This document shows, piece after piece, positions 47,143 through 62,398 of a DNA stretch of 64,000 nucleotides. Positions within the stretch are counted from its first letter, which is position 1, and each line of letters begins with the position of its first letter. This stretch comes from an uncultured Bacillota bacterium (GTDB lineage: Bacteria > Bacillota > Dethiobacteria > DTU022 > UBA8154), in assembly GCA_937973635.1 (NCBI GenBank), contig CALJJZ010000035.1:10812-74811 (forward strand), written 5' to 3'. A program made the translations under genes and the position numbers. Below the pieces are notes generated by a model. The model was given only the letters and a program-made list of their open reading frames with translations, was not told where the DNA came from and made no database searches.

Positions 47143-47153
<11 letters not shown>

Positions 47154-48407: not shown

Positions 48408-48719
48408 TCAGATAATTTTAATCACCTTATCCAGCTGGATGATCCTGAACATCCTGCTGACATTCTCGTTAGTCACGTTGCTCACACGCAGCTCGCCGTG
48501 CCGTTCCTTGAGCAGTTTATGGAACAGCAAAAGTTTGCCCAGCCCGGAGCTGTCGATGGCGTTTACATGGGTAAAATCTATGGTAATGGTGTTATATCCT
48601 TCATCATAAAGCTCCAGCAGCTTCTCTTTTAGCCCCTGAGAGTTGGAGATATCTATGCTCCCCTCCGGAATTACTACAACCGCCTTGTCGTCCGTCTTTA
48701 CTGTTTTCATTTCAAGCAA
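48408..48719 (-). CDS. STAS-domain anti-sigma-antagonist-like protein (phosphorylatable Ser present: IDSSGLG)
   Basis: 103 aa with a SpoIIAA-like fold and a DSSG motif. Confidence 0.75.
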   Translation of the reverse strand: MLEMKTVKTDDKAVVVIPEGSIDISNSQGLKEKLLELYDEGYNTITIDFTHVNAIDSSGLGKLLLFHKLLKERHGELRVSNVTNENVSRMFRIIQLDKVIKII

Positions 48720-48732
48720 AGCCCCCTTTAGA

Positions 48733-50604
48733 TTAAAATAAGGTCAGATCTCCCTCTGCCGAGCCCTCGTCCAGCTCATGGGCCTGCAGGTACTCCTTTG
48801 CCTGCAGGCGCTCCAGGTAGCTTGTAAAAAGTTTATACAGTTCCAGCAGTTCTGCGTTTTTCTCCTGCCATTCCTGCAGCCCCCAGCGCTGCAGCTCCAC
48901 CTCCTGCTGCTCCCTAGTCACCTGGACAATCTCCCCAAAGAGCACTTTGAGTCTCCCCACGGCCTGATGCAGGTGCACTGTATGCTGCAAAGCGTCGTTG
49001 ACTTCCTGCAGTTTCTGGAACAACGCCGTAATCTCGGCAGAGAGGGCGAGGACAGCCTGGCCGGCGATCTTGTTTGCCGCGCCAAAACGCTCCAGGTTGA
49101 CGTTTACCTCTGTGAGGGCATGGTCGATATGTCCCTGGTTGCGGAAGACAAGCTGAGCAAAGCGGTCCAGGTCCCTCTGCAGGCGGCCTTTAAGTTTAAA
49201 AAACGAGTTCCTATTCACCGTGACCGTCTCGTCCACCGCCTCAATTACCCCATCGATCTTGCTGCCGATGGCTGCATCGTGCCGGTTAATCCGCGCCAAC
49301 TCAATGCGGGACAGCAGCTTGATCTTTTTCAACAGGGAAACCCGCTCCTGGACAGCTTCAAGGCTTTGCTGCACCTGCAAGATATTCTCGTCGTAAAGGC
49401 TGCGGTCCTCCACCAGGCTGTTTACCCTTTTCCTGATCTCCAGCAGGACCTCCTTGAACTCCTCCATAAAGGCATAAACCGAGCTAAAGGTATAATCTAC
49501 GGCGGTCAGGGTCCTGCTGCCATGCCTGATAGAAGGCTCACCGGCCAGATAGGCAGCCAGGAGCTGTGCTTCCTCTCTGACCCCGTCAAGGGCCTGCAGG
49601 AGGTTCTTGGCCGTCAGGCCGATCTGGTTCAAGGAAGCCACCAGCTGCTCAGACATCCCCTCCACAAGTTTCTGTGTCATCCCCGCCACGCCGTTGACAA
49701 AAACGATATGGTCAAGGCGTCTTTCCTTTGTCTCTGGGGCAACGGGTAAAAAAAGGTACGTCTTGTATTTTAATTCCAAAGCCTGCAGGCACCTGATGCT
49801 GTTCTCCATGTTCTGCCTGATAATATCCTGGCGCTGGATCAACCCCATCAGCTCCTGGAAAGGCGAGAGCACCAACTGCACATTGGCGATGATATTTTTT
49901 AAGATTTTGCTCATCTCCCCGATGGAGGCAATAAGGTTGGCAAAGATCTCTTCTAACCTGTTAATATAACCCTTTACCGCTGTCTCCTGGTTGCCGATAA
50001 TGCCCTGTACATCTTCCTGGAATTCGCTGTACCAGCGGTTCAAAGCTATAAGGAAAGCGTCGATGCGCTGGAATTCCTTTTCCAGGAAAATAGATGTCTG
50101 CAGGATATGGTCCGAGACGACAGCAAAGGCCCTCCCTTCCTCGCCGAGCCGGGAAGAGAAGATAATGGCGTTTAAAGAGATGTCGTTAACGTCGGAAAGG
50201 GTCCTTTTAATCACACCTACCAGGTCAATAAAGGTGCGGAAAGAGTTCTCCCGGTTCTCTCCGCCCAAAAACAAGCCCAGCAAACGGTTCACGTCTTCCT
50301 GCCCTACTAAAAGGGTGCTGATCTCCCTAAAATTATCCCGCACCTTTTGCAGCGCTTGAGCAAAAAGGAGAAACTCGCCAGCTTTAGCGGCCTGGGCCGT
50401 CTGCTCTGATTGGATAAAGTAGTTAATCAGGATATTGGTCTCCTGCTGTGTAAGCTCCAAGTTCCGCTCGATCACCGGCAGGCTTTCGTGTACAATGCCG
50501 TAATAATGCTCTGTCTCCCCGATCAGTTCCTGCAACTTCATGACAGTGTCTTCAATTACTTTCAGCAGGTGCTGTTCTACCCTGCCCACGGCTTGCTCCG
50601 CCAT
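48733..50604 (-). CDS. Soluble, divergent MCP-signalling-domain protein (MCP highly conserved hairpin-tip-like motif near the N-terminus, about 450-aa C-terminal region of unknown function)
   Basis: Residues 139-166 (LSLNAIIFSSRLGEEGRAFAVVSDHI) match the MCP tip [26 protein letters not shown] at about 15 of 26 positions, the same order as the bona fide MCP in this window. There are no TM segments and the remainder is coiled-coil-rich. Confidence 0.55.
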   Translation of the reverse strand: MAEQAVGRVEQHLLKVIEDTVMKLQELIGETEHYYGIVHESLPVIERNLELTQQETNILINYFIQSEQTAQAAKAGEFLLFAQALQKVRDNFREISTLLVGQEDVNRLLGLFLGGENRENSFRTFIDLVGVIKRTLSDVNDISLNAIIFSSRLGEEGRAFAVVSDHILQTSIFLEKEFQRIDAFLIALNRWYSEFQEDVQGIIGNQETAVKGYINRLEEIFANLIASIGEMSKILKNIIANVQLVLSPFQELMGLIQRQDIIRQNMENSIRCLQALELKYKTYLFLPVAPETKERRLDHIVFVNGVAGMTQKLVEGMSEQLVASLNQIGLTAKNLLQALDGVREEAQLLAAYLAGEPSIRHGSRTLTAVDYTFSSVYAFMEEFKEVLLEIRKRVNSLVEDRSLYDENILQVQQSLEAVQERVSLLKKIKLLSRIELARINRHDAAIGSKIDGVIEAVDETVTVNRNSFFKLKGRLQRDLDRFAQLVFRNQGHIDHALTEVNVNLERFGAANKIAGQAVLALSAEITALFQKLQEVNDALQHTVHLHQAVGRLKVLFGEIVQVTREQQEVELQRWGLQEWQEKNAELLELYKLFTSYLERLQAKEYLQAHELDEGSAEGDLTLF

Positions 50605-50640
50605 AACACCCCTCCTTCTTTTCCCAGCGACAAGGAAAAG

Positions 50641-51729
50641 CTAGCCGCGCACATAACTTACGATGGCCCCGCCGATATCATCCAGGGGCAAGATCTTATC
50701 CACAGCCCCCGCCGCGATGGCCTGCTTAGGCATGCCAAAAACAACAGAGCTCTGCTCGTCCTGGGCGATGGTCAGGGCGCCTGCGTCATGCATGGCTTTT
50801 AATCCCCGGGCGCCGTCGTCCCCCATACCCGTAAGGATAATGCCCAGGCTATTGCCGGAAGCATTTTGGGCTACAGAGAAAAAGGTCTTATCCACAGAGG
50901 GGCGGTGCCGGTTTACAGGCGGGCCGTTATCCAGGCGCACGATAAAACCGCTTGCTCCCTTGGACAGGAGCATATGTTTGCCTCCTGGCGCGACCAGAAC
51001 GCTGCCGTTGACGAGAGGGTCGCCGTCTTGAGCCTCCTTGACCCGCAGGCGGCAGAAATTGTTCAGGCTGGCCGCGTAGGAGGCGGTAAAACCGGCAGGC
51101 ATATGCAGCACCACAAGGATGCCCGGCAGGTTGGCCGGCAGCTTAGAGAGTATATTTTTCACCGCCACGGTGCCGCCGGTGGAAGCGCCGATGGCGATGA
51201 CCTTATCTGTGCTCTGCACCAGCCCCCTTCCCGGCTCGCGGGCCGCCAGGTCAGGGATAAGCTCTGCCGGTGCCATCAAGCGGTCGATGCGTTCCTGCCT
51301 GACCTGGCGGCGCAGGACCTCCATGTTTGCCGCAGCAGCATTTCTAATCTTGCCGATTATCTCTGGCGCCAGCTCTTCCAGGGCGCTCCCCAGACCCAGA
51401 GTAGGTTTAGAAATGTAATCCACGGCACCGAGTTCCAAGGCACGGAGTGTAGCTTCGCTCCCCTCCCGGGCCAGGGAGCTGATAACCACCACGGGCAGGG
51501 GATAGGAGGCCATCAACTTTTCCAGAAAAGTAAGGCCGTCCATCCGGGGCATCTCCAGGTCGAGGGTAATCACGTCAGGGCGCTCCTCTTTGATCTTTTT
51601 GATGGCGTACAGGGGATCGTTTGCCGTGCCCAGCACCTCCATACCCCGTTCCCTGGAGATAATGCGGGCTAGCAGTTCCCGTACCAGCGCTGAGTCGTCC
51701 ACAATGAGTACTTTAATCGGCTTAGGCAT
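50641..51729 (-). CDS. cheB: Chemotaxis response regulator protein-glutamate methylesterase
   Basis: REC domain (LIVDDS...DVITLDLEMPRMDG) and the methylesterase catalytic Ser region GASTGG. Confidence 0.9.
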   Translation of the reverse strand: MPKPIKVLIVDDSALVRELLARIISRERGMEVLGTANDPLYAIKKIKEERPDVITLDLEMPRMDGLTFLEKLMASYPLPVVVISSLAREGSEATLRALELGAVDYISKPTLGLGSALEELAPEIIGKIRNAAAANMEVLRRQVRQERIDRLMAPAELIPDLAAREPGRGLVQSTDKVIAIGASTGGTVAVKNILSKLPANLPGILVVLHMPAGFTASYAASLNNFCRLRVKEAQDGDPLVNGSVLVAPGGKHMLLSKGASGFIVRLDNGPPVNRHRPSVDKTFFSVAQNASGNSLGIILTGMGDDGARGLKAMHDAGALTIAQDEQSSVVFGMPKQAIAAGAVDKILPLDDIGGAIVSYVRG

Positions 51730-52334
51730 TACCTGTGGCCCCTCCCATTGTTAAAAATCGTCAGCTCGCTTTCTTTCTGCTGCTGCTGGCGCATCCAGTA
51801 AAAGAAACGCTTTTCCCGGGAAATGGCATCTTCCAGCGTCTGGTTATACTGGATGCGTTTCAGGTAAACTGTAAACTCTTCGGGGAAAAAAAAGATCTTG
51901 CGCCCGTATTTGCCGCCTAAGTTCTCCGCAAGCACCGGGATCTCTTCCATCTGCAGGTAGGTAAGGGCAAAATCAATATTGGACTGAGAGACATTGAGCA
52001 GGGTCGTATCCATGACCTTCCCTCCGCCAAAGACTTTGGCTTCTAGGGTGTCGCGGCGGGCGCCGAGCTTCATCATGCTGTTAATCATCTTTTCCATGGC
52101 ATTGATGCCATAACGGGCGTCCTGGCTGAAAAGGATCTCTTCGGCACGCAGGCTCCCCGGCAGCATAAAATGGTTCATGCCCACAATGCCCGTAGTCCTG
52201 TCCCGCAGACAGACAGAGACACAGGAACCGAGGAGCGTGGTCAGAATGATATTTTTCTCCCGCGTAGCGTAATAGTCCCCCGCGAACAGCTCGTACGTGT
52301 ATTTGTTAAAAGTCCGGTTGAAATACTTTTTCAA
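51729..52334 (-). CDS. cheD: Chemoreceptor glutamine deamidase
   Basis: CheD family, 201 aa (LGSCVSVCL...GMNHFMLPG). Confidence 0.85.
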   Translation of the reverse strand: MKKYFNRTFNKYTYELFAGDYYATREKNIILTTLLGSCVSVCLRDRTTGIVGMNHFMLPGSLRAEEILFSQDARYGINAMEKMINSMMKLGARRDTLEAKVFGGGKVMDTTLLNVSQSNIDFALTYLQMEEIPVLAENLGGKYGRKIFFFPEEFTVYLKRIQYNQTLEDAISREKRFFYWMRQQQQKESELTIFNNGRGHR

Positions 52335-52358
52335 CGCTTCCTTTGCACCACCTTGCCC

Positions 52359-53225
52359 TCAGCCGAGCTTTTGATAGATGGTATGTTTAAGCAGCCGCCA
52401 CCTCCCGGCATTGCCGGAAACAGTATTAATGGATTCGGAATGGCCCAGGAAGAGGAGCCCGCCCTCCATAAGGTGCCGGTGGTAACGCTTTAACACCCTT
52501 TGCTGCGTCTCTTTGTCAAAATAGATAAAGACATTGCGGCAAAAAATAAAATTAAGGGCCTCCCCCACGGGATATTCGCCGGCACTGGTAAGGTTAATGC
52601 GACGGAAAGTGATCAGCTCCCGCAGCATGTCTTTGACCTTGAAAAAACCCGCATTTGGTCCCGTGCCCAACTTAAAATAGGTTTTCAAGTTCTCATAGGG
52701 AATACCTTCCACTTCGTCCTTGCTGTAGATGCCCTCGCGGGCCTTTTGCAGCGTTTCTGTATTAATATCGGAAGCCAGGATCTGGATCTTCCAGTTTTTG
52801 TGCCCTTTGAAATAGCGGTGCAGCACCATGGCGATGGTATAAGGCTCTTCGCCCGTAGAGCAGCCGGCGGACCAGCAGCGCAGGCGGCGGGGCACAAGGC
52901 CCGCCGCCGCCAGCTCTTCCAGCCGGGGCAAGTACTCTTCCACCAGGTAGGCATAGTGGTGGTTCTCCCGGAAAAACTTGGTCACGTTGGTGGTAATAAG
53001 ATTAAACATGGTATCAAGCTCGCCAGGATTTTCCCGGACATATCCAAGGTACGCGCTCACGTCTTTGAGCTGTAGCTCCCGCAGCCTGCGGGAAAGGCGG
53101 GAAATCGTCAACGCCCTTTTGCTTTCCGTTAGGTTCACCCCGATGGAGTTGTAGATCATCTCGCGGATGGCGAGGAATTCTTTATCCGTTAAGGTGTACT
53201 GTTTGCCCGGCAGCGTCGCCATCAT
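52359..53225 (-). CDS. cheR: Chemotaxis protein methyltransferase
   Basis: CheR N-terminal helical domain and SAM-MTase motif WSAGCSTGEEPY. Confidence 0.9.
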   Translation of the reverse strand: MMATLPGKQYTLTDKEFLAIREMIYNSIGVNLTESKRALTISRLSRRLRELQLKDVSAYLGYVRENPGELDTMFNLITTNVTKFFRENHHYAYLVEEYLPRLEELAAAGLVPRRLRCWSAGCSTGEEPYTIAMVLHRYFKGHKNWKIQILASDINTETLQKAREGIYSKDEVEGIPYENLKTYFKLGTGPNAGFFKVKDMLRELITFRRINLTSAGEYPVGEALNFIFCRNVFIYFDKETQQRVLKRYHRHLMEGGLLFLGHSESINTVSGNAGRWRLLKHTIYQKLG

Positions 53226-55339
53226 GACCCTGCCACCTTCGCCGTCTCGCTGCCGCTGTAATCAGCCTTGCGCACCAGGCGGAAGAGGGAGGAGACGTCC
53301 AGAATGATGGCCACTTTCCCGTCGCCCATGATCGTGACTCCGGCCACGCCGTCGACCTGCTCCATGTTTTCCTTAATGCTTTTAATTACTACCTGTTCCT
53401 GGCCGATAATCTCGTCTACAAGCAGCGCCATCTTTTTCTGGCCATCCTTGATGATCACTAGGATCCCCTCCGTGGGACGAGTATGCTCTGCTTCCAGGTG
53501 CAGCAGCTGGTAAAGGGCGGAGTAGGGGATATACTCGTTGCGCAACTGCATAATCAACCCTTTGCCCTCTGCCTGCCGGATGTCTCCCTGGCGGGCTTTA
53601 ATAAATTCCATAATAGAGGTGAGAGGGATGATAAAACGTTCCGTGCCCACCCGTACCATCATGCCGTCGATAATAGCCAAGGTCAGGGGCAGCTTGATGC
53701 TGAATTTTGTCCCCTTGCCCCGTTCAGAAAAGAGCTCCACGCTGCCGCGCAGGTTCTTAATATTGTTGGCCACCACATCCAGCCCTACCCCGCGACCGGA
53801 GATGTCAGAAACCTCTTTGGCCGTGGAAAAACCGGGCATAAAGAGCAGGCGCTGCAGCTCCGCCTGGCTGGGCAGACGGTCCTTTTCCACCAGCCCCCTT
53901 TCCCTGGCCTTCGCCAGGACGGCTTCTTCGTTGATCCCCCTACCGTCGTCGCTGATCTCAATGACAATATTCCCTTCCTGGTGAAAAGCATTGAGATGGA
54001 TCGTGCCCTGAGGTTTCTTGCCGGCAGCTAGGCGCTCCTCCGCCGTCTCCAGGCCGTGATCCACGGCATTGCGGATGAGATGCTTCAGGGGGTCCGTGAT
54101 CTGCTCAATGACCTTTTTATCTAGCTCCGTCTCCTTGCCGCTCATCACCAGCTCGATTTCTTTGCCTTTTTCCCGTGCCAGATCCCTGACCATGCGCTGG
54201 AAGCGCATAAAGGTGCCGCCAATGGGGATCATGCTGGTGGTCATGACCTCCTCTTGGAGGAAACGGATAATTTTGTCCACTTCCTGGAAAGCATTCAACA
54301 CCTCCGCCACCGCTGCCCGTTCTCCCAGCATTTTGGAAACAAGCTCTTTCACGCGGGACTGGGCAATGAGCAGCTCGGCGATATAATTCAGGATCTCTTC
54401 CAACTTACCTGTATCTACGCGAATGGTGTTGGCCTGCTCCTGCTCGCGGAAGCGCTGCTGCGTCTGCATGACCTTGCTCACCTGCCCGCTGGCAAGCTTG
54501 CCCTCAAGCACCAAAAGCTCCCCCACTCGCTTCTGCTTGGCCAGGACCTCTTCTACCTCTTCAGGTGAAATTAGGCCCCGCTCCACGAGCATCTCCCCGG
54601 TCCTTTTCTCTCCGTGAAACCACTGGTCCAGCTCATTGGTGATCTCGTCGATCTTGATCTCGTTGTCGTCGGCAACAAAAATAAAGATATTTTCCAGCTC
54701 TTCTTTACTGCTGCCTGTCTCCAGAAAGATAGTCCAGGAAAGATAGAGCTGCTGCGGATCAAGTTCCTGCAGAGGGGGCAACTTGGCCATATTCACGTAG
54801 TTCTCCAAAAAGACGCCCGTCTCTTCCAGCTCCAGCAAAAGCATCAGGGGATCTGTGCCCGTGGCAAAAAGGTCCGGTTTAAACTTCAGCTCTAGCTTAT
54901 AGTAGCGCTTTCCTGGAGAAGCCTTAGGGGGAGCTTCCTTTTCTGCCGGTGTTTCTCCCCCGGCAGCATATAAATCGGCTTTCCGGATCAGCTCTGCTAC
55001 CTCTTTCTGGTAAGCCGTACCCTCGGGGTCGCCGCTTTCCAAGAGCTGGCGCAAGACATCCAGCCCGGCAAACATAAGAGAGAATACCTCCCTGGGCATA
55101 CCTTCTCCGGACTGGCGGATCTGATCTAAGATGTTTTCCAGGTGGTGAGCCGCCTGGCTAATCTGGGTAAAGCCCATGAGGCCGGCCCCTCCTTTAATTG
55201 TATGCATGGCCCGGAAAACAAGGTCGATCAGCCCCATATCCCCGGGGTTGTCTTCTAGCTCCAGGAGCCCTTCCTCCAGGGACTGGAGGTTTTCCTCCGT
55301 CTCTTCGATAAAAATTTTAAGCATATCTTCACCGGCCAA
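53222..55339 (-). CDS. cheA: Chemotaxis histidine kinase CheA (P1 Hpt, dimerisation, HATPase_c, CheW-like P5)
   Basis: P1 His in AMHTIKGGAG, G-boxes in the HATPase_c domain, and a C-terminal CheW-like domain. Confidence 0.9.
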   Translation of the reverse strand: MAGEDMLKIFIEETEENLQSLEEGLLELEDNPGDMGLIDLVFRAMHTIKGGAGLMGFTQISQAAHHLENILDQIRQSGEGMPREVFSLMFAGLDVLRQLLESGDPEGTAYQKEVAELIRKADLYAAGGETPAEKEAPPKASPGKRYYKLELKFKPDLFATGTDPLMLLLELEETGVFLENYVNMAKLPPLQELDPQQLYLSWTIFLETGSSKEELENIFIFVADDNEIKIDEITNELDQWFHGEKRTGEMLVERGLISPEEVEEVLAKQKRVGELLVLEGKLASGQVSKVMQTQQRFREQEQANTIRVDTGKLEEILNYIAELLIAQSRVKELVSKMLGERAAVAEVLNAFQEVDKIIRFLQEEVMTTSMIPIGGTFMRFQRMVRDLAREKGKEIELVMSGKETELDKKVIEQITDPLKHLIRNAVDHGLETAEERLAAGKKPQGTIHLNAFHQEGNIVIEISDDGRGINEEAVLAKARERGLVEKDRLPSQAELQRLLFMPGFSTAKEVSDISGRGVGLDVVANNIKNLRGSVELFSERGKGTKFSIKLPLTLAIIDGMMVRVGTERFIIPLTSIMEFIKARQGDIRQAEGKGLIMQLRNEYIPYSALYQLLHLEAEHTRPTEGILVIIKDGQKKMALLVDEIIGQEQVVIKSIKENMEQVDGVAGVTIMGDGKVAIILDVSSLFRLVRKADYSGSETAKVAGS

Positions 55340-55353
55340 AACAGCCTCACCAC

Positions 55354-55734
55354 CTATTTAACGAATTTTTTCACTACAGCAATGAGCTGCTCCGGTTTAA
55401 ATGGCTTAACCAGCCAACCGGCAGCTCCGGCATTTTTCCCTTCCATCTTTTTTTGTTCCTGTGATTCTGTAGTAAGTACAAGGATGGGAATAAATTTTAA
55501 AGCGGTATTTTTTTTAACCTCTTTAATAAAAGTAATCCCGTCCATACGCGGCATATTAATATCCGTAATGATCATGGCCGGCTTTTTGCCCTTATTGCCC
55601 AGCTCCTGGAGACGCTCCAGCCCGTCCTGACCGTCCACCGCCGCAACTACCTCATAGCCCCCCTTGGACAGGGTATACTCCAGAGAAGCCCTGACCGTCT
55701 TTGAGTCATCCAGAACAAAAATAAACTTGTTCAT
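55354..55734 (-). CDS. cheY: CheY-like single-domain response regulator
   Basis: 126 aa. It has D (in LDDS), phosphoacceptor in MIITDINMPRMDG, T (LTTES) and K (VKPF). Confidence 0.85.
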   Translation of the reverse strand: MNKFIFVLDDSKTVRASLEYTLSKGGYEVVAAVDGQDGLERLQELGNKGKKPAMIITDINMPRMDGITFIKEVKKNTALKFIPILVLTTESQEQKKMEGKNAGAAGWLVKPFKPEQLIAVVKKFVK

Positions 55735-56024
55735 TGTCCCTTGAATACTCCCTTCTCCACAATATCAACGGCCCCTGAAAGTTCCAGTAACTGTTCCAGC
55801 ATCTTTCCCCTGTTCATCAGGCTAAAAGAGAGGCCTTCCCGCTGGCAGGCTTTAAACGTAGCCAGGAGTAGCTGTATACCGGCTGCATCGACATCCTGCA
55901 GGACAGCAGCATCCAGCACAAACTCCTTTTTCCCCTCTTTCATCCTTTTTCCCAGGTGCGCCAGGATCTCCTCCCGCACCTCCCGGACATTGTGGATATT
56001 CAAAAATTCAGGGAGTTTCAACAT
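55731..56024 (-). CDS. STAS-domain protein with Ala in place of the phosphorylatable Ser (DVDAAG instead of DSSG)
   Basis: 97 aa with a SpoIIAA-like fold. Its start overlaps cheY (ATGA). Confidence 0.65.
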   Translation of the reverse strand: MLKLPEFLNIHNVREVREEILAHLGKRMKEGKKEFVLDAAVLQDVDAAGIQLLLATFKACQREGLSFSLMNRGKMLEQLLELSGAVDIVEKGVFKGQ

Positions 56025-57222
56025 CGGTCATCATCCCCTTGTCATTTTCCCAAAACGGTTCTGCCGCGTCCATCCGCACTATTCCCCCCAGGGCATTTTC
56101 CCGCAGCTCATTATGGCGGGCCATACCCCGGGCATGGTCGCAGTACATAATACCCGCCTCCCCGTTTTCGCAGCAGCGGTTGCCAGCCAAAAGCGGGGCC
56201 GCATAATCCCGGACAATAATGCCAGACCAGTTATTTTTTAAGCATTCGTTCCTTTTTGCCATGCCAGTAGCATGATCGAAAAAGGTAATGCCTCCTTCTT
56301 CATTTCCCTGGCAGATATTGTGGAGCAGCACGGGGGCAGCCTGCTCCAGGACGGCAATGCCAGACCACTTATTGCGGAGGCAGCGGCAATAAAAAGCGCC
56401 GCCGCCGCTTAAGCCCATAAAAGCTATGCCCGTTTCGCCGTTGGAGCTGCACTCGTTTTCCTGCAGGAAGGGGGCGGCTTGCTCCAGCACCGTAATGCCG
56501 TCGGAGCTGTTGTTAAGGCACCTGTTCCCCCGGGCCAAGCCCCCGCTCTGATGGAAATAGACAATGCCAGATTCGCCGTTTTCATAACAGTGGTTGGCTT
56601 CAAGGAGCGGGTGGGCCTTCTCCAGCACGGCGATACCCGCCCGGCCATTACTGGTGCAGGTGTTCTCCAGCACCACCGCGCAGGAACCGCCCAGGAGGAC
56701 GATGCCCGCATGGCCGTTGTCTCGGCAGGTATTCTGCTCAAGGGAGGCCCTGGACTGCCCCGTTACAGCGATGCCGGACCTGTCATTGCCATAACTGAGA
56801 GAGGCGGCAATGCTGCCCTGCGCTCCACTACCTAGCCAAAGGCCGTCTCCGCCTGAAGCCGCGCCTTCCGCATAAACACCACCGCTGAAAGCACAGCCCT
56901 CGATCACCACCGTGCCCTCCTTGACCTGTAAAACATTTGCCCCTGCCTTACCCCCATATTGAAAGGCAATACCGCTAAACTGCCAGCTTCCCCTGCCCTC
57001 CAGCAGCACAACGGCGGGGCCGCCCTCGCCAATAATCTTCGTCTGCTCTCGCCCTTTCCCTTTAAGGGCCAGAGGCTTGGTGAGGACAAGGGGTTCCGCC
57101 AGGCGGTATTCACCTGCGGCAAGGAGCAGAATATCCCCCTCCCCGGCAACAGCAAGGGCCCCGCGCAGGTTTTCCGCTCCCGGGGCAACTTGTAAAATAC
57201 GGCCTTCTTTCCCTTTGTCCAT
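56008..57222 (-). CDS. Cytoplasmic right-handed parallel beta-helix (PbH1) repeat protein
   Basis: 404 aa with no signal peptide. About eleven exact-period 23-aa repeats of consensus N-x-C-x-x-N-G-x-x-G-I... run from residue 141 to 393. Confidence 0.6.
   Translation of the reverse strand: MDKGKEGRILQVAPGAENLRGALAVAGEGDILLLAAGEYRLAEPLVLTKPLALKGKGREQTKIIGEGGPAVVLLEGRGSWQFSGIAFQYGGKAGANVLQVKEGTVVIEGCAFSGGVYAEGAASGGDGLWLGSGAQGSIAASLSYGNDRSGIAVTGQSRASLEQNTCRDNGHAGIVLLGGSCAVVLENTCTSNGRAGIAVLEKAHPLLEANHCYENGESGIVYFHQSGGLARGNRCLNNSSDGITVLEQAAPFLQENECSSNGETGIAFMGLSGGGAFYCRCLRNKWSGIAVLEQAAPVLLHNICQGNEEGGITFFDHATGMAKRNECLKNNWSGIIVRDYAAPLLAGNRCCENGEAGIMYCDHARGMARHNELRENALGGIVRMDAAEPFWENDKGMMTDVETP
56044..56802 (-). 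repeat. Coding tandem repeat, 69-bp period (the PbH1 repeats of the beta-helix protein)
   Basis: Derived from the 23-aa protein periodicity seen in the translation. Confidence 0.55.
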
Positions 57223-57246
57223 TTTTCCCCTCCCTGGCCCTGCCCT

Positions 57247-57606
57247 CTAGAGCTTCTCCTGCCAGCCGGGGCGCTGGAAAAACCTTTTTAGCTCCTCAAC
57301 CTGGCGGGTCAGTGCATCTAAAAGCTCCTTTGCTTCCTCCAAACGCCCTTCTTTTCCAGCAGCCTCCAGTTCAAGGGCAAGTTTGTACGCTGTCTGCGCG
57401 CCGATATTGCCTAGCTCACCTTTAAGGCCATGGGCAGGGGCAACAATCCCCTGGGCATCCTGCCGGCTGAGCGCTTCCTGGACAACATTAAGGTCATGGC
57501 AGCAGTCTTCAAAAAAGAGGGCTACAATCTCCGCCAGAAGATCTTTGCTGCCACCCATCTGCTTGAGCATGTTTTCCAAATCGGGGTGCATCTTCTCGTG
57601 GTGCAT
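57247..57606 (-). CDS. Stand-alone Hpt (histidine phosphotransfer) domain protein
   Basis: 119 aa. Hpt signature around HGLKGELGNIGA, as in the ArcB/Ypd1/HptB family. Confidence 0.7.
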   Translation of the reverse strand: MHHEKMHPDLENMLKQMGGSKDLLAEIVALFFEDCCHDLNVVQEALSRQDAQGIVAPAHGLKGELGNIGAQTAYKLALELEAAGKEGRLEEAKELLDALTRQVEELKRFFQRPGWQEKL

Positions 57607-57689
57607 CTTCAGTTCTCCTTTACCCTTAAACCTTTTAGCTATTTGTTTTTTTCCACAAATTTCTCCTTTTTTCCTTTTTGCCCCGCAAA

Positions 57690-58157
57690 TTATTTGTTCC
57701 CTGCCTCACCTGAGCTCCCTTGCTGCAGTTTTGTAGCCTGCATACAGCCTTCCATCTCCATATTGACGGGCCTGTCCACCTGCCTGCTCTGTGCTAGAAG
57801 GCCAGGGCCGCCTAGCCCCATGAAGTTGAACTCTTGGCACTTGAGCTTGAGAGGATTTTCTTCAATGCAGATCACGTGCTGCAGGCTGAGGCGGTCAAAG
57901 AGCTGCCTGACAAAGGGGTGGCCCACATTGACCAGTTTCAGTTCGCCTCCTTGCTCTTTCAGCCGCTTCTGAGTAACAAGCAAGCAGCTCAACCCGGCGC
58001 TGTCGATGCGCTGCAGAACGTCGCAGTCCAAAGCTAGAACGCTGCAGCCTTCTTCTAAGAGCCGGCCCAATACTTGCTTCAGCTCCCCTGCGTTGGTCAT
58101 ATCCACAAAAGAGGGGAGCCTAACCAGGGCGCAGCTCTTCTCCTTCTCCACTCTCAT
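57690..58157 (-). CDS. STAS-domain protein with a C-terminal extension (Ser retained: IDSAGLS)
   Basis: 155 aa: a STAS core of about 110 aa plus a tail of about 45 aa. Confidence 0.65.
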   Translation of the reverse strand: MRVEKEKSCALVRLPSFVDMTNAGELKQVLGRLLEEGCSVLALDCDVLQRIDSAGLSCLLVTQKRLKEQGGELKLVNVGHPFVRQLFDRLSLQHVICIEENPLKLKCQEFNFMGLGGPGLLAQSRQVDRPVNMEMEGCMQATKLQQGSSGEAGNK

Positions 58158-58291
58158 GATAAAACCTCCTCCCAGTTCTTCCTAACCTAACTGTGAACAT
58201 GTCCCAGTCGCCTTTCCTTATAGCCAAGGACAGCGCAGCAGGGCCCAAGCAATCATAATGCTCCGGCCTTTTTTTGTCCCTCTTCAAGCGC

Positions 58292-60004
58292 CTAGAATTT
58301 TTCAAAATCGTCTTCGTCGAAAGCCCCAGGGCCGGGCAGCATGGGAAAAACTTGCTTGTTTTTGCCTTTGGTCTCCATCCTGGCGGAGAAGGCTTTCCCG
58401 CCTTGGGCAGGGGGCACCGCCCTTTGGCCCAGGCCGCGCTGCTCCCCCGTATCCCGGAGGGTAAAGAGCCCCACCATCTCGGAGAGCTCCGTCGCTTCTC
58501 TATCCATGTTTTCGCTGGAGCTGGCGATCTCCTCTACTAAGGAAGCGTTCTGCTGGGTAACCTGGTTGAGCTCTTCGATAGCCGTACGGATATCTGCAGC
58601 AGCGGCAGACTGCTCGCGCAAAGAGGCGGATATCTCTCCCACTACGTCGCTGGTTTTTCGCGTGTTCTGGACAATGATCTCCAGTACCTTTTCCGTCTCC
58701 CCCATCAGCTCGTTGCCCTTATCTACACGGGCAATGCTGTCCTTAATTAACTTTTCGATCTCTTTGGCCGACGCCGCAGAACGCCCGGCCAAGTTCCGCA
58801 CCTCCGCCGCCACCACGGCAAAGCCCCGGCCCTGCTCTCCAGCCCGGGCCGCCTCTACAGCAGCGTTTAAGGCTAAAAGGTTGGTCTGGAAAGCAATGTC
58901 ATTCACCGCAGCAATAATCTCTGAAATCTCCCGGCTGCCCCGCGTGATCTCTTGCATTGCCCCTTGCATCTGCCTGACCACCTCTACCCCCTGAGAGACG
59001 CTTTGCAGCGTCTTTTTGGAGATGGTGTCCGCTTCTGTGGCGTTGGCGGCCGCCGTCTCTAGGGAAGAAGTGATCTCTTCCACGGTGGAGGAGATCTCCT
59101 CTAAGGAAGAAGCCTGCTCTTCCGTCCTCTGGGAGAGGTCCTGGTTCCCCGAGGATATCTCCGAAGAGGCCAGAGAGATGAGGTTGGCCCCGTTGCGTAC
59201 GCTTAAAATAATATCGTTCAGTTTCCCCACAAACGCGTTGAAGCTAGAGGCCAAGTCTCCCACTTCGTCCCGGGACCGGACCACTATCCTCCTGGTCAGG
59301 TCGCCTCCTTGCTTCGCCATCTCCTGCAAGGAAGTGACAACTGCCTTAATGGGGACAGTTATACCCCGGTTCAAGAGCATGGCCATGACTACGCCCAGCA
59401 CCAAAGCTAGCAAAGAGGCAAGGACGATGACCCTGCGGGAGAGCTCGTTCTGGGCTTCGGCCATGGCCACTTGTTTCTCTTTCTCCTGGCCCAGGACATC
59501 TTGTAGCTCTTTGAGTAAAACCCTGACTTCTGTAATATAAAGTTGGGTGCGGTCCCGGTAGACCTGCAGGGCCTGCTCCCGGGCCAGAGGCGAGCCCATC
59601 CCCTGGGCTGCAAAAATTTCGACGATCTCTGCCGCCGAGGCATGCAAAAGGGCATGGGGCTCTTCCAGCCTGAGGAAGGCATCTTGAAACTCCCTGGAAG
59701 CCGCTTTAAAGCCCTCCCCCCTGAGGGTGGCATAATACCACCGCCCGAAATCGCACTGGGTGTGGTCGAGCTGGCCCGTAAATTGCCTTTGTAAAACAAA
59801 GGTATTAGCCAGGTTGTTTAGCCAGTCCAGATGGTCCACTTCTTTTTGTACTGTGAAAATAATTTCCTCCATCTTCTGCATGGCCACAGCATTGGCCCTT
59901 TCTACCCTGGCGTTGGTCAGGTAGGCAATGCCACCCATAGCCAGCATTAGCGCCAGGACCACACCAAAGCCACCAAGCAATTTGAGTTTTAACGAAAAGC
60001 GCAT
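58292..60004 (-). CDS. Methyl-accepting chemotaxis protein (two TM segments, periplasmic helical sensor, HAMP, MA domain)
   Basis: TM1 at residues 8-30 and TM2 near residue 195. The tip motif is LALNAAVEAARAGEQGRGFAVVAAEVRNLAGRS. It has an acidic C-terminal tail ending DEDDFEKF. Confidence 0.9.
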   Translation of the reverse strand: MRFSLKLKLLGGFGVVLALMLAMGGIAYLTNARVERANAVAMQKMEEIIFTVQKEVDHLDWLNNLANTFVLQRQFTGQLDHTQCDFGRWYYATLRGEGFKAASREFQDAFLRLEEPHALLHASAAEIVEIFAAQGMGSPLAREQALQVYRDRTQLYITEVRVLLKELQDVLGQEKEKQVAMAEAQNELSRRVIVLASLLALVLGVVMAMLLNRGITVPIKAVVTSLQEMAKQGGDLTRRIVVRSRDEVGDLASSFNAFVGKLNDIILSVRNGANLISLASSEISSGNQDLSQRTEEQASSLEEISSTVEEITSSLETAAANATEADTISKKTLQSVSQGVEVVRQMQGAMQEITRGSREISEIIAAVNDIAFQTNLLALNAAVEAARAGEQGRGFAVVAAEVRNLAGRSAASAKEIEKLIKDSIARVDKGNELMGETEKVLEIIVQNTRKTSDVVGEISASLREQSAAAADIRTAIEELNQVTQQNASLVEEIASSSENMDREATELSEMVGLFTLRDTGEQRGLGQRAVPPAQGGKAFSARMETKGKNKQVFPMLPGPGAFDEDDFEKF

Positions 60005-60084
60005 TTTCTTTTCTTCCTTTCTCTTTCATGCTAATTTATCTTTGCTTAACTTTTCAGGCTGGAAGCTTTTTAGATTTCTAATCC

Positions 60085-61098
60085 TCAAGCTTCCACAAGC
60101 TGCTCAAGGCGGAGCCCTTTTCCCCAGAAGAGATAAAGACAGGCCTTGGTAACATCCGGGTCATAACAGCACCCTTTCTGCCGGTCGATCTCCCCCAGGG
60201 CCTCCTCCATACCCAAGGCAGGGCGGTAGGGGCGGTGCGAATTTATGGCCTCCACTACGTCCGCCACGCATAAGATCTTCGCCTCCAGGAGGATCTCGTG
60301 ATCTTTCAGGCCCGAAGGGTAGCCGCTGCCATCGATTTTTTCATGGTGCTGAGCAATGATGCGGGCAATGGGCCAGGGGAAATAAGTTTCGCCCAGGATC
60401 TCACTGCCGACCTGAGGGTGCATCTTCATCATGCTGAACTCTATCTCGCTGAGTTTGCCCGGCTTGGTCAGGATCTCCGCCGGAATAGCGATCTTGCCAA
60501 TATCGTGAATTAAAGAGGCCAGGCGCAGCCCTTCGATACGCTCTTTCTCCAGGCCCATCTCCCTAGCGATGCTCACGGCCAGAGCTGCTACTCGGCGCTG
60601 GTGCCCAGCCGTATAAGGGTCCCGCTTCTCGATCATCTTGCCCATACCCCGGATGATCCCTTCCCTGCTCTCCAGCAGCTGCAGCTCCGCTTTTTCCCTT
60701 TCCCTTTCCAGCTTCCTTAAATAGAGCAGCCGCCGTACACGGTGGCGGAGCTCTTCTTTGTTAATGGGCTTGGTCACAAAATCAGAAGCCCCGGCCTGAT
60801 ACGCCTGCTCCATGATCCCCCCTTCGTCTTTGGCCGTAACCATAAGCACGGGCACAAGTTTTCCCCCGGTTAGCTCTTTAATCTTCCGGCAGGCTTCCAG
60901 CCCATCCATAACAGGCATGACAATATCCAACAAAACCATGTCAGGCTGTTCCGTTAAAAACAAGTGCAGCACCTGCCTGCCGTTCTCCGCTTCCTTAACT
61001 TGCAGGCCCTCGCTGTTTAAAATATGGGCAATCATCCGTCTGGAAGCCTTATGGTCATCGGCCACGACGACCAGAGGTGCCGTCCGGGCAGAGAACAT
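60085..61098 (-). CDS. Response regulator with HD-GYP phosphodiesterase output (RpfG-like)
   Basis: REC domain (VVVADD...MVLLDIVMPVMDG) and HD-GYP domain (LIHDIGK, AQHHEKIDGSGYP). Confidence 0.8.
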   Translation of the reverse strand: MFSARTAPLVVVADDHKASRRMIAHILNSEGLQVKEAENGRQVLHLFLTEQPDMVLLDIVMPVMDGLEACRKIKELTGGKLVPVLMVTAKDEGGIMEQAYQAGASDFVTKPINKEELRHRVRRLLYLRKLEREREKAELQLLESREGIIRGMGKMIEKRDPYTAGHQRRVAALAVSIAREMGLEKERIEGLRLASLIHDIGKIAIPAEILTKPGKLSEIEFSMMKMHPQVGSEILGETYFPWPIARIIAQHHEKIDGSGYPSGLKDHEILLEAKILCVADVVEAINSHRPYRPALGMEEALGEIDRQKGCCYDPDVTKACLYLFWGKGLRLEQLVEA

Positions 61099-61115
61099 CG
61101 CTATCCCTACTTTCT

Positions 61116-61523
61116 TCAGACTTTACCTTCTTCACCTTGACCTTGGAAGGCCTTTAAGCTCTCCACCAGCGTAAGGACGTCGTCCCCAAAGTTTTCCCGG
61201 GAGACATAACCGTCAAAACAGGCTGTTCCTGCATTAGAATCAAAAAGCAGGGCTTTGAAGACAGTTAGGCCGATAATTTTTGTCCCCGCTGCCACTTTTT
61301 TCAGCCTTCTGCAGAGCTCAGGCGTATCCCCACCCGCAAAAACAGGGTTGAGGAAGATAATCTGGGGTTGTAATTGCCTGGTTATCCTCAGAGCCTGTTC
61401 TGCGTCGTCACTCAGCATCACTTCGTCCACCAGCTGCAGGGTAGATAAAAAGTGCCGAGCAACCTGGTTGAACGGGCCTTTCAGGTCGATGATCAGTATA
61501 TTCAAAGGAGCCATTTTTTTCAT
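61116..61523 (-). CDS. Pseudo-receiver domain protein (REC fold lacking the phosphoacceptor Asp and the conserved Lys)
   Basis: Beta1 is ILIIDLKG (single acidic residue). At the beta3 end, IIFLNPVF has Asn where Asp is expected. There is no K in the beta5 region. Confidence 0.5.
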   Translation of the reverse strand: MKKMAPLNILIIDLKGPFNQVARHFLSTLQLVDEVMLSDDAEQALRITRQLQPQIIFLNPVFAGGDTPELCRRLKKVAAGTKIIGLTVFKALLFDSNAGTACFDGYVSRENFGDDVLTLVESLKAFQGQGEEGKV

Positions 61524-61661
61524 CCTTTTTAAGAGGTGTAGCCAACACATAAGAGGCGCAGCCAGCACGCCCGGTTGCACCTCCTATTATACTTCGGCCC
61601 GGCCAGGGATCCATATCAGCAAGTTCCCTATTAAGGAGCGCAACATTTCCCATATCTCCAT

Positions 61662-61688
61662 AAAAAAAGCCCCATTTTAAAACAGGGC
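61662..61688 (-). terminator. Weak intrinsic terminator candidate downstream of the NarL-type regulator gene (short GC stem plus U7)
   Basis: On the minus strand: GCCC-tgttttaaaatg-GGGC followed by TTTTTTT (plus-strand A-run at 61662-61668). Confidence 0.3.
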
Positions 61689-61726
61689 ATAGAGCACAGA
61701 CCTTGAAGCAAAATTTAGAGGTTTCA

Positions 61727-62371
61727 TCAGGGTTCCAGCAGGCCGATCAACCTGGCAAACTGGCGGATATCTCCTTCCTGGCGCAGTTCCAGCTTTTCCA
61801 TGATGTTGCTCTTATGCCTGTCCACCGTTTTGGGGCTGATACAAAGCCTTCTGCCGATCTCCGAGCGGCTGCAGTTCCTGGCCCACAGGTTAAAGACTTC
61901 CTTTTCCCGGGAAGTCAGCTTGCTGTAACTGGCCATGGCGCCGCTACTTGGGCCTGCTTGCAAATAACCGGCCAGCACGGGCTGGAGCACCGCAGAGCTC
62001 AAATAGGGCCTGTCCTTTTTAACCGCCTCCAGGGCCAGCATAAGTTCATCATAGACCGCGTCTTTATGCACATATCCCATGGCGCCGGACTTTAAAGCCT
62101 GGTCCACATAGATACTATCCGCATAGCCAGAGAGGATCACCACCCTGGCAGAGGGGATATATTCCTTTATCTGTCTGGTCGCCTCCAGGCCGCTCACCCC
62201 CGGCAGGGAGATATCCATAATCACCACGTCAGGGGCCACTTTTGCGCTGAGGGCCACGGCCTCAAGGCCGTCGCCCGCCTCCCCCACCACCTCGATGGAC
62301 CCTTCTTTCTCCAGCAGTGCTCTTAGCCCCTGGCGGAAAAGGGCATGGTCATCAACCAGGAGAACACGCAT
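61727..62371 (-). CDS. NarL/FixJ-family response regulator (REC plus LuxR-type HTH)
   Basis: REC domain (LLVDDH...VVIMDISLPGVSG) and LuxR HTH (LTSREKEVFNLWARNCSRSEIGRRLCISPKTVDRHKSNIMEKL). Confidence 0.85.
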   Translation of the reverse strand: MRVLLVDDHALFRQGLRALLEKEGSIEVVGEAGDGLEAVALSAKVAPDVVIMDISLPGVSGLEATRQIKEYIPSARVVILSGYADSIYVDQALKSGAMGYVHKDAVYDELMLALEAVKKDRPYLSSAVLQPVLAGYLQAGPSSGAMASYSKLTSREKEVFNLWARNCSRSEIGRRLCISPKTVDRHKSNIMEKLELRQEGDIRQFARLIGLLEP

Positions 62372-62398
62372 ATTTTCACCTCTCGCTCAGTCAAGTTC

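What the first reader, a model, noticed from the sequence alone, without database searches (positions are those of the whole stretch)
56008..57222. Cytoplasmic PbH1 beta-helix repeat protein inside the che operon (eleven exact 23-aa N-x-C-x-x-N-G-x-x-G-I repeats)
PbH1 beta-helix proteins are usually secreted (polysaccharide lyases, NosD-like, adhesins). This one has no signal peptide. It sits between Hpt and STAS/CheY with 24-bp and 17-bp junctions, so it is almost certainly co-expressed with the signalling genes.

Each repeat carries a conserved Cys. That gives a ladder of Cys along the helix, a possible metal- or redox-binding surface. Its role in a Che-like pathway is unknown: it could be an input sensor or an output target.
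Basis: seen in the sequence. Interest (0 to 1): 0.55.

Follow-up and report, generated by a model that had tools for sequence, protein, structure and literature searches.

The report
Cytoplasmic beta-helix protein in che operon
A real 404-residue, signal-peptide-less beta-helix repeat protein sits inside a chemotaxis-like signalling operon. It belongs to a large uncharacterised clade whose members are repeatedly fused to, or encoded beside, protein kinases, so it is most likely a binding or sensor subunit of the pathway and not a secreted sugar enzyme or a metal-binding cysteine surface.

Summary
Window 56008..57222 (-) is a 404-aa ORF with eleven units of exactly 23 residues. Cys occupies the N-x-C position in 9 of them. 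The ORF lies 24 bp after an Hpt gene and overlaps a STAS gene by 17 bp. It has a strong Shine-Dalgarno sequence, no possible upstream start and no hydrophobic N-terminus.

The Cys ladder is not a surface. Across 1859 repeat units from 158 relatives that position is 75% Cys, otherwise mostly Ile/Leu/Val, and it is flanked by polar positions. It is therefore a buried core stack, and it is also present in secreted relatives. No acidic, basic, His or Tyr residue is conserved, which argues against catalysis.

All seven informative genomic contexts of this clade have a kinase or phosphorelay fused or adjacent:
- CheA, here and in a second lineage;
- a hybrid HK with RR-GGDEF-EAL;
- Ser/Thr kinases, with or without PP2C.

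The che association itself is sporadic: none of 80 CheA loci from metagenomes carries the gene.

Best reading (0.4): a non-catalytic cytoplasmic recognition or adaptor subunit of the Che-like pathway.

The parts
56008..57222 (-). Beta-helix repeat protein gene, 404 aa plus stop codon
57227..57234 (-). Shine-Dalgarno-like GGGAGGGG, 4 nt upstream of the ATG
   Evidence: Upstream sequence printed. The gap to the Hpt stop codon is 24 bp.
56803..57222 (-). Residues 1-140: N-terminal cap (strand 9-12, helix 16-25) and irregular first coils, including the GGDGL motif
   Evidence: AF2 secondary structure. The cap consensus GxYxLxxPLxIxKxLxLxGxG is shared with 29 relatives.
56044..56802 (-). Residues 141-393: eleven regular 23-residue coils in an A/B 46-residue super-repeat. 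Cys stack at residues 166, 189, 212, 235, 258, 281, 304, 327 and 350.
   Evidence: Register tables. Three short strands per coil. Position statistics.
56011..56043 (-). Residues 394-404: C-terminal tail. Residues 398-404 have pLDDT below 50. The tail overlaps the start of the STAS gene.
   Evidence: pLDDT < 50 for residues 398-404. 17-bp overlap.
57247..57606 (-). Stand-alone Hpt protein (119 aa; AHGLKGE phospho-His motif), immediately upstream
   Evidence: PF01627 E = 1.5e-13. 41% identical to the C-terminal Hpt domain of the hybrid kinase in the related locus L004.
55731..56024 (-). CheS-like STAS protein (97 aa). Its motif is DAAG, so it has no phosphorylatable Ser. It overlaps the beta-helix gene by 17 bp.
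   Evidence: PF13466/PF01740. Sequence. STAS-CheY-CheA is conserved in loci L004, L005, L006, L009, L010, L011, L014, L015 and L043.
50641..55734 (-). cheY (55354..55734), cheA (53222..55339), cheR (52359..53225), cheD (51729..52334), cheB (50641..51729)
   Evidence: Pfam. Gene junctions range from a 4-bp overlap to a 24-bp gap.
47143..50604 (-). Soluble MCP-like receptor (48733..50604, ends DLTLF), STAS with DSSG (48408..48719), and REC-PP2C phosphatase (47143..48354)
   Evidence: Pfam. 46% identical to the downstream-type receptor of L004.
43734..47195 (-). PAS hybrid histidine kinase with two receiver domains and no Hpt domain. It is the likely phospho-donor to the stand-alone Hpt.
   Evidence: Pfam. 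Its L004 counterpart carries a C-terminal Hpt domain.
57690..60004 (-). Membrane MCP with a CZB domain (58292..60004) and a STAS protein with DSAG (57690..58157), upstream of Hpt
   Evidence: Pfam. The MCP is 64% identical to the L004 MCP-CZB.

Best explanation
**What it is.** The gene encodes a cytoplasmic, non-catalytic, rod-shaped right-handed beta-helix of about 15 coils. Its core is packed by stacks of Cys, Ile, Val/Tyr and Leu/Ala and by two Asn ladders. Its faces are variable.

**How it most likely works.** It belongs to a large uncharacterised clade that serves as the recognition (sensor or partner-binding) module of protein kinases. That module is fused to Ser/Thr kinases in many organisms and is encoded as a separate subunit beside kinases in others. 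In this operon it is made together with the CheS-like STAS protein, CheY and CheA. I propose that it docks on the CheA-level signalling complex (CheA, the STAS protein or the soluble receptor). There it would either bring in a cytoplasmic signal or recruit a partner, and so modulate CheA output.

**Shown:** the fold, the lack of an export signal, the buried Cys stack, the absence of conserved catalytic-type residues, the operon position, and the recurrent linkage to kinases.

**Inferred:** the physical partner, the direction of signalling (input versus output), and any ligand.

For: **Cytoplasmic location.** No hydrophobic N-terminus and no alternative start. 79 of the 150 best representatives of the clade also lack any hydrophobic segment.

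**Non-catalytic.** Across 30 relatives the invariant and near-invariant residues are only G, N, C, I, L, P, A and T. All eleven coils are exactly 23 residues, with no inserted loops. Scores fall far below the NosD and AlgG family cut-offs.

**Kinase linkage.**
- 19 of 48 relatives chosen for lacking a predicted membrane segment carry a Pkinase domain.
- 16 of 23 kinase fusions have no membrane segment between the kinase and the helix.
- L092 has two tandem Pkinase | beta-helix gene pairs.
- L093 has beta-helix | Pkinase with a 9-bp gap.
- L094 has beta-helix | VWA | PP2C | Pkinase.
- L003 has a kinase-helix fusion with VWA and a weak PP2C match nearby.
- L091/L089 have HK-REC-Hpt | RR-GGDEF-EAL | beta-helix.

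**Che linkage in a second lineage.** In L007/L008 a 399-aa protein sits directly upstream of soluble MCP-like receptor | CheA | CheD. It is the query's best blastp match among the relatives compared (43% identity, 309 bits) and has the same coil number, with no indel across the coils. Its 43% identity is similar to that of the co-inherited receptors (46%), while CheA is 67-70% identical. This is compatible with vertical co-inheritance with the che cluster.

**Native to the operon.** The gene's composition matches its neighbours (GC3 0.64 against 0.51-0.71). No more terminator-like sites were found across the cluster than in shuffled sequence.
Against: - The che association is sporadic. None of 80 CheA-containing metagenome loci carries a relative, and that set includes the related STAS-CheY-CheA loci. 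The closest CheA relatives, L004/L005 (70%) and L006 (67%), also lack it. The pathway therefore works without it.
- No surface patch is conserved among the three closest relatives. Outward-facing repeat positions 2, 4, 7, 16, 20 and 23 are identical in only 1-2 of 11 coils.
- The context survey covers only about ten loci, chosen by similarity, and has no background control.
- No interaction was tested or modelled.
- Identity of about 40% is typical across the whole clade, so orthology of the L007 protein rests on a small margin (309 against 295 bits).
Confidence: 0.4

Rival explanations
1. Output or partner-switch target. The beta-helix would be the protein that one of the STAS proteins binds and releases. 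It would take the place of the anti-sigma/switch kinase that is missing from this cluster, so that the Che-like and Hpt/REC-PP2C branches converge on it.
For: - The cluster has three STAS proteins and a REC-PP2C phosphatase, but no RsbW/SpoIIAB-like kinase was detected in the 64-kb window.
- The beta-helix gene overlaps the next STAS gene by 17 bp, which is typical of co-translated partners.
- PP2C phosphatases also accompany relatives in L094 and L003.
Against: - The overlapping STAS has DAAG instead of the phosphorylatable Ser. It is the conserved CheS-like member of STAS-CheY-CheA modules that occur without any beta-helix.
- L007 has the beta-helix but no adjacent STAS.
- A switch kinase could lie outside the window.
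Confidence: 0.15
2. Passenger gene. It would be a clade member with a function unrelated to chemosensory signalling that was inserted into the operon together with the split-off Hpt gene and is simply co-transcribed.
For: - It is absent from most related che clusters.
- The region differs from L004: the upstream-type receptor and cheW are missing, the MCP-CZB gene sits elsewhere, and Hpt is a separate gene instead of part of the hybrid kinase.
Against: - A second lineage has it beside cheA.
- The next closest relative sits in a phosphorelay/c-di-GMP operon next to flagellar genes.
- Its composition is native to the operon.
- The tight junctions and the overlap have been maintained.
Confidence: 0.2
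3. Carbohydrate-active enzyme. It would be an epimerase, lyase or hydrolase like AlgG/AlgE4 or the PL6 lyases. It would act on a cytoplasmic glycan or be exported by a non-classical route, for example to modify an exopolysaccharide under Che-like control.
For: - The nearest solved structures and sequence matches are all sugar-active enzymes, tailspikes or NosD.
- Che-like pathways that control exopolysaccharide production exist (general knowledge).
Against: - No conserved acidic, His, Lys, Arg or Tyr residue is found across relatives.
- There is no DPHD-type motif in the sequence.
- The coils have no loops that could form a substrate groove.
- NF038177 (AlgG) scores 29.7 against a cut-off of 700, and TIGR04247 (NosD) scores 40 against 300.
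- There are no polysaccharide synthesis genes next to it.
Confidence: 0.1
4. Redox or metal sensor through the Cys ladder. The nine stacked thiols would bind a metal or form disulfides and report redox state to CheA.
For: - Nine Cys lie at an exact 23-residue spacing.
- A CZB (zinc-binding) chemoreceptor lies in the same cluster.
Against: - The position has a buried-position signature and sits in the middle of a strand in the model.
- In relatives it is replaced mainly by Ile, Leu and Val.
- It is conserved in secreted and lipoprotein relatives.
- There is only one ladder Cys per coil, so no chelating pair is available.
Confidence: 0.05

Closest known systems
Mannuronan C5-epimerases AlgE4 A-module and AlgG (PDB 2PYG, 4NK6)
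   Different: They are secreted or periplasmic enzymes with catalytic residues and substrate grooves. Here there is no signal peptide, no conserved catalytic-type residue and no loops, and the AlgG family model scores 29.7 against a cut-off of 700.
NosD (periplasmic copper-delivery component of NosDFY, PDB 7O0Y)
   Different: TIGR04247 scores 40 against a cut-off of 300. No nos genes were seen among the cluster genes and the ten other ORFs scanned. The protein is cytoplasmic and has no known metal ligands.
Ser/Thr kinases with a C-terminal PF13229 beta-helix (uncharacterised; for example P0003 and P0008, and the kinetoplastid protein P0158)
   Same: They share the same Cys-core 23/46-residue repeat and the same N-terminal cap, at 37-43% identity across the whole domain.
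   Different: Here the module is a separate polypeptide, and the neighbouring kinase is the histidine kinase CheA, not a Hanks-type kinase.
Sinorhizobium meliloti icpA-cheS-cheY1-cheA operon (CheS is a STAS protein that binds CheA)
   Same: Related clusters have soluble MCP-like receptor | STAS | CheY | CheA. The window has STAS | CheY | CheA. CheS binding to CheA is described in PMC12654446. The gene order of the S. meliloti operon is from my own knowledge.
   Different: In the window the slot before the STAS gene is occupied by Hpt plus the beta-helix instead of the soluble receptor. No beta-helix protein is described for the S. meliloti system.
Pseudomonas aeruginosa HptB-HsbR-HsbA relay (Hpt, then REC-PP2C, then STAS); from my own knowledge
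   Same: A stand-alone Hpt, a REC-PP2C phosphatase and Ser-containing STAS proteins are encoded in the same cluster.
   Different: HsbR also carries the switch-kinase domain, which is absent here. No beta-helix component is known in that system.
FBXO11 CASH-domain substrate receptor (eukaryotic SCF ubiquitin ligase); from my own knowledge, not tested here
   Same: An intracellular PbH1/CASH beta-helix used for protein recognition and not for catalysis.
   Different: It is eukaryotic and fused to an F-box, and as I recall it has Ile where this clade has Cys. No sequence or structure comparison was run.

Membership tests
PF13229 Beta_helix / PbH1 right-handed parallel beta-helix repeat | Profile match above the curated cut-off | tested here: met
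   154.9 bits against a cut-off of 25.9. TIGR03804 scores 76.5 against 19.45.
PF13229 Beta_helix / PbH1 right-handed parallel beta-helix repeat | Repeats of 22-23 residues with conserved Asn and Gly-Ile, forming three strands per coil | tested here: met
   Eleven 23-residue units. G-I in 11 of 11 units. Three strands per unit in the model.
PF13229 Beta_helix / PbH1 right-handed parallel beta-helix repeat | Right-handed parallel beta-helix fold | tested here: met
NosD (TIGR04247) | Family-level profile score, and nosZ/nosF/nosY gene context | tested here: not met
   40.1 bits against a cut-off of 300. No nos genes were seen among the scanned neighbours.
Mannuronan C5-epimerase AlgG/AlgE | Equivalog profile score and catalytic DPHD-type motif | tested here: not met
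   NF038177 scores 29.7 bits against a cut-off of 700. There is no DPHD in the sequence. No conserved acid or His is found across relatives.
Secreted PbH1 proteins (lyases, adhesins, tailspikes) | Export signal: Sec or Tat signal peptide, lipobox or autotransporter domain | tested here: not met
   Hydrophilic N-terminus, folded N-terminal end of the domain, and no upstream start. SignalP itself could not be run.
Known che accessory proteins (CheW, CheV, CheC, CheX, CheZ, CheD, CheS/STAS) | Pfam domain of the respective family | tested here: not met
   Only Beta_helix, NosD and a sub-threshold Pect-lyase_RHGA_epim match were found.
Kinase-associated Cys-core beta-helix clade (unnamed; defined here) | N-x-C-x-x-N-x-x-x-G-I units in a 46-residue A/B super-repeat, with a GxYxLxxPLxIxKxLxLxGxG cap | tested here: met
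   Consensus of 30 and of 48 relatives. Cys in 75% of 1859 units.
Kinase-associated Cys-core beta-helix clade (unnamed; defined here) | Fused to, or encoded beside, a protein kinase or phosphorelay component | tested here: met
   The window has Hpt upstream and STAS-CheY-CheA downstream. Seven of seven informative contexts show the linkage. No background control was run.
Anti-phage defence components (PADLOC) | Match to a defence-system protein model | tested here: not met
   No match for the query, the L007 protein or P0035.

The most novel reading that the evidence does not exclude
The Cys-core PbH1 beta-helix would be a widespread, unrecognised cytoplasmic sensor or recognition module that pairs with protein kinases of every class: Hanks-type Ser/Thr kinases, hybrid histidine kinases and CheA. 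In this operon it would act as a receptor-like input to CheA, occupying the gene slot that related clusters give to an IcpA-like soluble chemoreceptor. That would make it a non-MCP input to a chemosensory kinase.
Probability: 0.2. Interest if true: 0.7.

Novelty: new variant of a known kind. Interest (0 to 1): 0.45.

Why it matters
Chemosensory pathways are thought to take their input through MCP-type receptors and a short list of accessory proteins. A beta-helix repeat protein is not on that list, and the paper searches run here did not turn up one in a che operon.

The broader point may matter more than this one gene. The clade is large: 6978 representatives match at E of at most 0.001, and 556 at E of at most 1e-30. 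No solved structure is closer than E = 2e-14 to a profile of the clade. More than half of the best representatives look cytoplasmic. The clade is repeatedly fused to, or paired with, Ser/Thr kinases, PP2C phosphatases and His-Asp relays.

If it is a general kinase-coupled recognition module, it would give a handle on what many orphan bacterial kinases sense. The che-operon copy, with its well-understood neighbours and in vitro assays for CheA, would be a tractable place to test that.

The result also corrects a tempting misreading: regularly spaced Cys in a beta-helix repeat marks the core, not a metal site.

Tried and rejected
- **Single-sequence AlphaFold.** It gave pLDDT 38 and was discarded.
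- **Word-index protein searches.** With the protein and with a 30-sequence profile they returned only 7 and 9 hits, because the repeat swamps the candidate list. The exhaustive phmmer search was used instead.
- **Genome-collection scan.** It found only a distant planctomycete fragment (L001), so the source genome is not among the species representatives.
- **Metagenome scan with the two che-linked beta-helix proteins.** It found nothing.
- **afdb50 fold library.** It was unavailable.
- **Rfam on the whole window.** No match.
- **Promoter and terminator scan.** Counts were at shuffle level, so it was uninformative.
- **Paralogues in the window.** None.
- **PADLOC.** No match.
- **Literature searches.** Searches for beta-helix plus chemosensory, PF13229 plus chemotaxis, cysteine ladder, and TerY-P plus beta-helix found nothing relevant.
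- **Trio-specific conserved surface patch.** The only semi-conserved outward position (position 8, alternating acidic and aromatic) appears, from a few relatives inspected by eye, to be shared across the clade.
- **Misassembly or repeat collapse.** Rejected.
- **Beta-helix replacing CheW.** I considered this because no cheW was found in the window. I rejected it as unsupported: the folds are unrelated and cheW may lie elsewhere in the genome.
- **Cluster-member lookup.** It gave no organism names.
Full report

Window 56008..57222 on the minus strand is a 404-codon ORF and the longest possible reading. Eight codons upstream of its ATG lies an in-frame stop, which is the stop codon of the preceding Hpt gene. 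GGGAGGGG sits 4 nt before the ATG.

The Hpt gene (57247..57606) ends 24 bp upstream. From Hpt down to the hybrid kinase gene, every junction lies between a 53-bp overlap and a 53-bp gap.

Pfam gives PF13229 Beta_helix at E = 1.7e-45 and NosD at E = 8e-20. NCBIfam gives the TIGR03804 repeat at E = 9e-22.

Residues 141-393 are eleven units of exactly 23 residues, with no insertion or deletion. Cys occupies the N-x-C position in nine consecutive units (residues 166 to 350). Gly-Ile is present in all eleven. The units alternate between two types, giving a 46-residue super-repeat. So 'eleven exact repeats' is right for the period, not for identity, and 'each repeat carries a Cys' is true for 9 of 11.

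The repeats are not visible at the DNA level. A separately assembled Logan contig (L002, 1665 bp) is identical to window 55818..57482. Repeat collapse or misassembly is therefore excluded.

**2. Fold and location**

A single-sequence AlphaFold run failed (pLDDT 38). With a 12-sequence alignment the model reached pLDDT 94.8 and pTM 0.92, with three short strands per 23-residue coil from about residue 61 to 392 and a helix at residues 16-25.

The N-terminus is hydrophilic. It has no lipobox and no twin-arginine motif, and it is part of the folded N-terminal end of the domain in the model. SignalP was not available, so the call 'cytoplasmic' rests on these points.

**3. The Cys ladder**

I extracted 1859 repeat units from 158 relatives and tabulated each of the 23 positions.

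- The Cys position is 75% Cys, then Ile, Leu, Val, Ser and Ala. It is 93% hydrophobic-class.
- Its two neighbours are 70% and 73% polar.
- The same signature marks the other core positions: Ile at position 11, Val/Tyr at position 13, and Leu/Ala at position 21.

In the model the Cys is the middle residue of a three-residue strand. In the profile alignment to AlgG it pairs with Tyr, Val, Ser, Ile, Val and Ala. Relatives with lipoprotein signal peptides carry the same ladder.

The ladder is therefore a buried stack that defines the clade, not a surface for metal or redox chemistry. I could not compute solvent accessibility because model coordinates were not exposed.

**4. No sign of catalysis**

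In an alignment of 30 relatives, the invariant and near-invariant residues are only Gly, Asn, Cys, Ile, Leu, Pro, Ala and one Thr. The coils carry no inserted loops. The equivalog models for AlgG (29.7 bits against a cut-off of 700) and NosD (40 against 300) fail by a wide margin.

**5. The family**

An exhaustive phmmer search of 1.84 billion representatives found 6978 proteins at E of at most 0.001 and 556 at E of at most 1e-30. None is more than about 43% identical.

- Of the 150 best, 79 have no hydrophobic segment, 41 have an N-terminal one, and 30 have only internal ones. Cytoplasmic members are thus the majority in this clade.
- Of 48 relatives chosen for lacking a predicted membrane segment, 19 carry a Ser/Thr kinase domain. 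Others carry HEAT repeats, Hsp70, TIR or DnaJ.
- Of 23 kinase fusions recognised by the catalytic-loop motif, 16 have no membrane segment between the kinase and the helix.

**6. Genomic contexts of relatives**

| Locus | Arrangement |
|---|---|
| L092 (planctomycete-like MAG) | Two tandem pairs: kinase-domain gene, then a 366/388-aa beta-helix gene |
| L093 | Beta-helix, then a kinase gene after a 9-bp gap |
| L094 (cyanobacterium) | Beta-helix, VWA, PP2C, kinase |
| L003 | Kinase-helix fusion, with VWA and a weak PP2C match downstream |
| L089/L091 (P0035 and P0280, the query's second-best blastp match) | Hybrid HK-REC-Hpt, RR-GGDEF-EAL, beta-helix, then flaG-fliD-fliS and further flagellar genes |
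| L007/L008 | 399-aa beta-helix, then soluble MCP-like receptor, CheA, CheD |

The L007 protein is the query's best blastp match among the relatives compared (43% identity, 309 bits). It has the same number of coils and no indel across them. It is the first gene of its operon.

Counting the window itself, seven of seven informative contexts link this clade to a protein kinase or phosphorelay. The remaining loci were too short or showed only tandem paralogues. This sample is small, was picked by similarity, and has no background control.

**7. How tight is the che link?**

I collected the neighbourhoods of the closest CheA relatives and 80 further CheA loci from metagenomes, then searched all of them with the beta-helix protein. 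Only L007 and L008 carry it.

The conserved core of this che type is soluble MCP-like receptor | STAS | CheY | CheA. It is seen in L004, L005, L006, L009, L014 and L043. To my knowledge this is the arrangement of icpA-cheS-cheY1-cheA in Sinorhizobium meliloti, where the STAS protein CheS binds CheA (PMC12654446).

The soluble receptors fall into two paralogous types, both ending in [DE]LTLF. The window has only the downstream type (46% identical to that of L004). It lacks the upstream type, and Hpt plus the beta-helix occupy that slot.

The window, L004 and L007 are about equidistant: CheA 67-70% identical and CheD 70-73%. The beta-helix pair (43%) has diverged about as much as the receptor pairs (46%). 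This fits an ancestral accessory gene that was lost in some lineages, but two independent gains cannot be excluded.

**8. The rest of the cluster**

- The stand-alone Hpt is 41% identical to the C-terminal Hpt domain of the hybrid kinase of L004. The window's own hybrid kinase (43734..47195) lacks that domain. Hpt therefore probably belongs to a relay running from the hybrid kinase through Hpt to REC-PP2C (47143..48354), which resembles HptB-HsbR of Pseudomonas (my own knowledge).
- Two STAS proteins keep the phosphorylatable Ser (DSAG, DSSG). The one overlapping the beta-helix gene has DAAG.
- No RsbW/SpoIIAB-like switch kinase was found in the window (the query sequences were recalled from memory).

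**9. Interpretation**

The best-supported reading is a non-catalytic cytoplasmic recognition or adaptor subunit that works with the CheA-level complex, by analogy with its kinase-fused relatives. I give it 0.4.

Rivals:
- passenger gene (0.2);
- target of STAS partner switching (0.15);
- cryptic carbohydrate-active enzyme (0.1);
- Cys-based metal or redox sensor (0.05).

The partner, the ligand and the direction of signalling remain inferred.

**10. Novelty**

The fold and the Pfam family are known. The following were not found in the literature searches run here:
- the clade's Cys-core signature;
- its predominantly cytoplasmic, kinase-linked distribution;
- its presence in a che-like operon.

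I rate it a new variant of a known kind, of moderate interest.

Noticed in passing
window 48733..50604 (-); L004 7444-9288 and 17235-19115; L006 5814-7574; L007 8126-9982: The soluble MCP-like receptors of this che type fall into two paralogous groups (about 30% identity between groups, 40-46% within). All end in [DE]LTLF, which looks like a CheR/CheB-tethering pentapeptide. The Pfam MCPsignal match is weak (26-35 bits).
   Followed up: partly
window 57247..57606 (-) and 43734..47195 (-); L004 19232-22045: The stand-alone Hpt is 41% identical to the C-terminal Hpt domain of the hybrid kinase in L004. The window's hybrid kinase has two receiver domains but no Hpt. This looks like a gene fission that placed Hpt next to the beta-helix gene.
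   Followed up: partly
window 43000..64000: No separate cheW gene was detected anywhere in the 64-kb window by tblastn with the L004 and L006 CheW proteins, although the related clusters L004 and L006 encode one. No RsbW/SpoIIAB-like switch kinase was detected either, despite three STAS genes and a REC-PP2C.
   Followed up: partly
window 55731..56024 (-), 57690..58157 (-), 48408..48719 (-): The three STAS proteins differ at the phospho-site. The CheS-like one next to cheY has DAAG (not phosphorylatable). The other two have DSAG and DSSG.
   Followed up: no
L092 4198-9167 (GCA_025060195.1): Two tandem copies of a two-gene unit: a stand-alone Ser/Thr kinase domain (about 300 aa) followed by a stand-alone beta-helix (366/388 aa). 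This is the split form of the common kinase-helix fusion.
   Followed up: partly
L094 8001-13873 (GCA_015207455.1); L003 143-8496: Beta-helix relatives lie next to a VWA / PP2C / kinase set of genes. From memory, this resembles the 'TerY-P triad' described by Anantharaman, Iyer and Aravind.
   Followed up: no
L091 3-15166; L089: The 509-aa relative P0035/P0280 lies after a hybrid HK-REC-Hpt gene and an RR-GGDEF-EAL gene, and just before a flagellar gene block (flaG, fliD, fliS, rod genes, fliE-fliI). Its roughly 110-residue N-terminal extension has no Pfam match.
   Followed up: partly
P0158 (Porcisia hertigi): A kinetoplastid (eukaryotic) Ser/Thr kinase carries the same type of beta-helix region (E = 3e-30 to the clade profile), so the kinase-helix combination crosses domains of life.
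   Followed up: no
window 3274..5685 (-): An 803-aa Cas3-like helicase with a C-terminal HD domain (PF22590, PF18019). The neighbouring ORFs were not examined for other cas genes or a CRISPR array.
   Followed up: no
window 25666..27447 (-): A 593-aa protein combining a Cu_amine_oxidN1 domain, Big_2 domains and leucine-rich repeats. It is probably a cell-surface protein.
   Followed up: no
window 39392..40390 (-), 60085..61098 (-): An RR-GGDEF diguanylate cyclase and an RR-HD-GYP phosphodiesterase flank the che-like cluster. This suggests cross-talk with c-di-GMP, as in the L091 context of the related beta-helix.
   Followed up: no
window 47143..48354 (-) / 43734..47195 (-): The listed start of the hybrid kinase ORF (TTG at 47195) overlaps the end of the REC-PP2C gene by 53 bp. 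The true start is probably further downstream.
   Followed up: no
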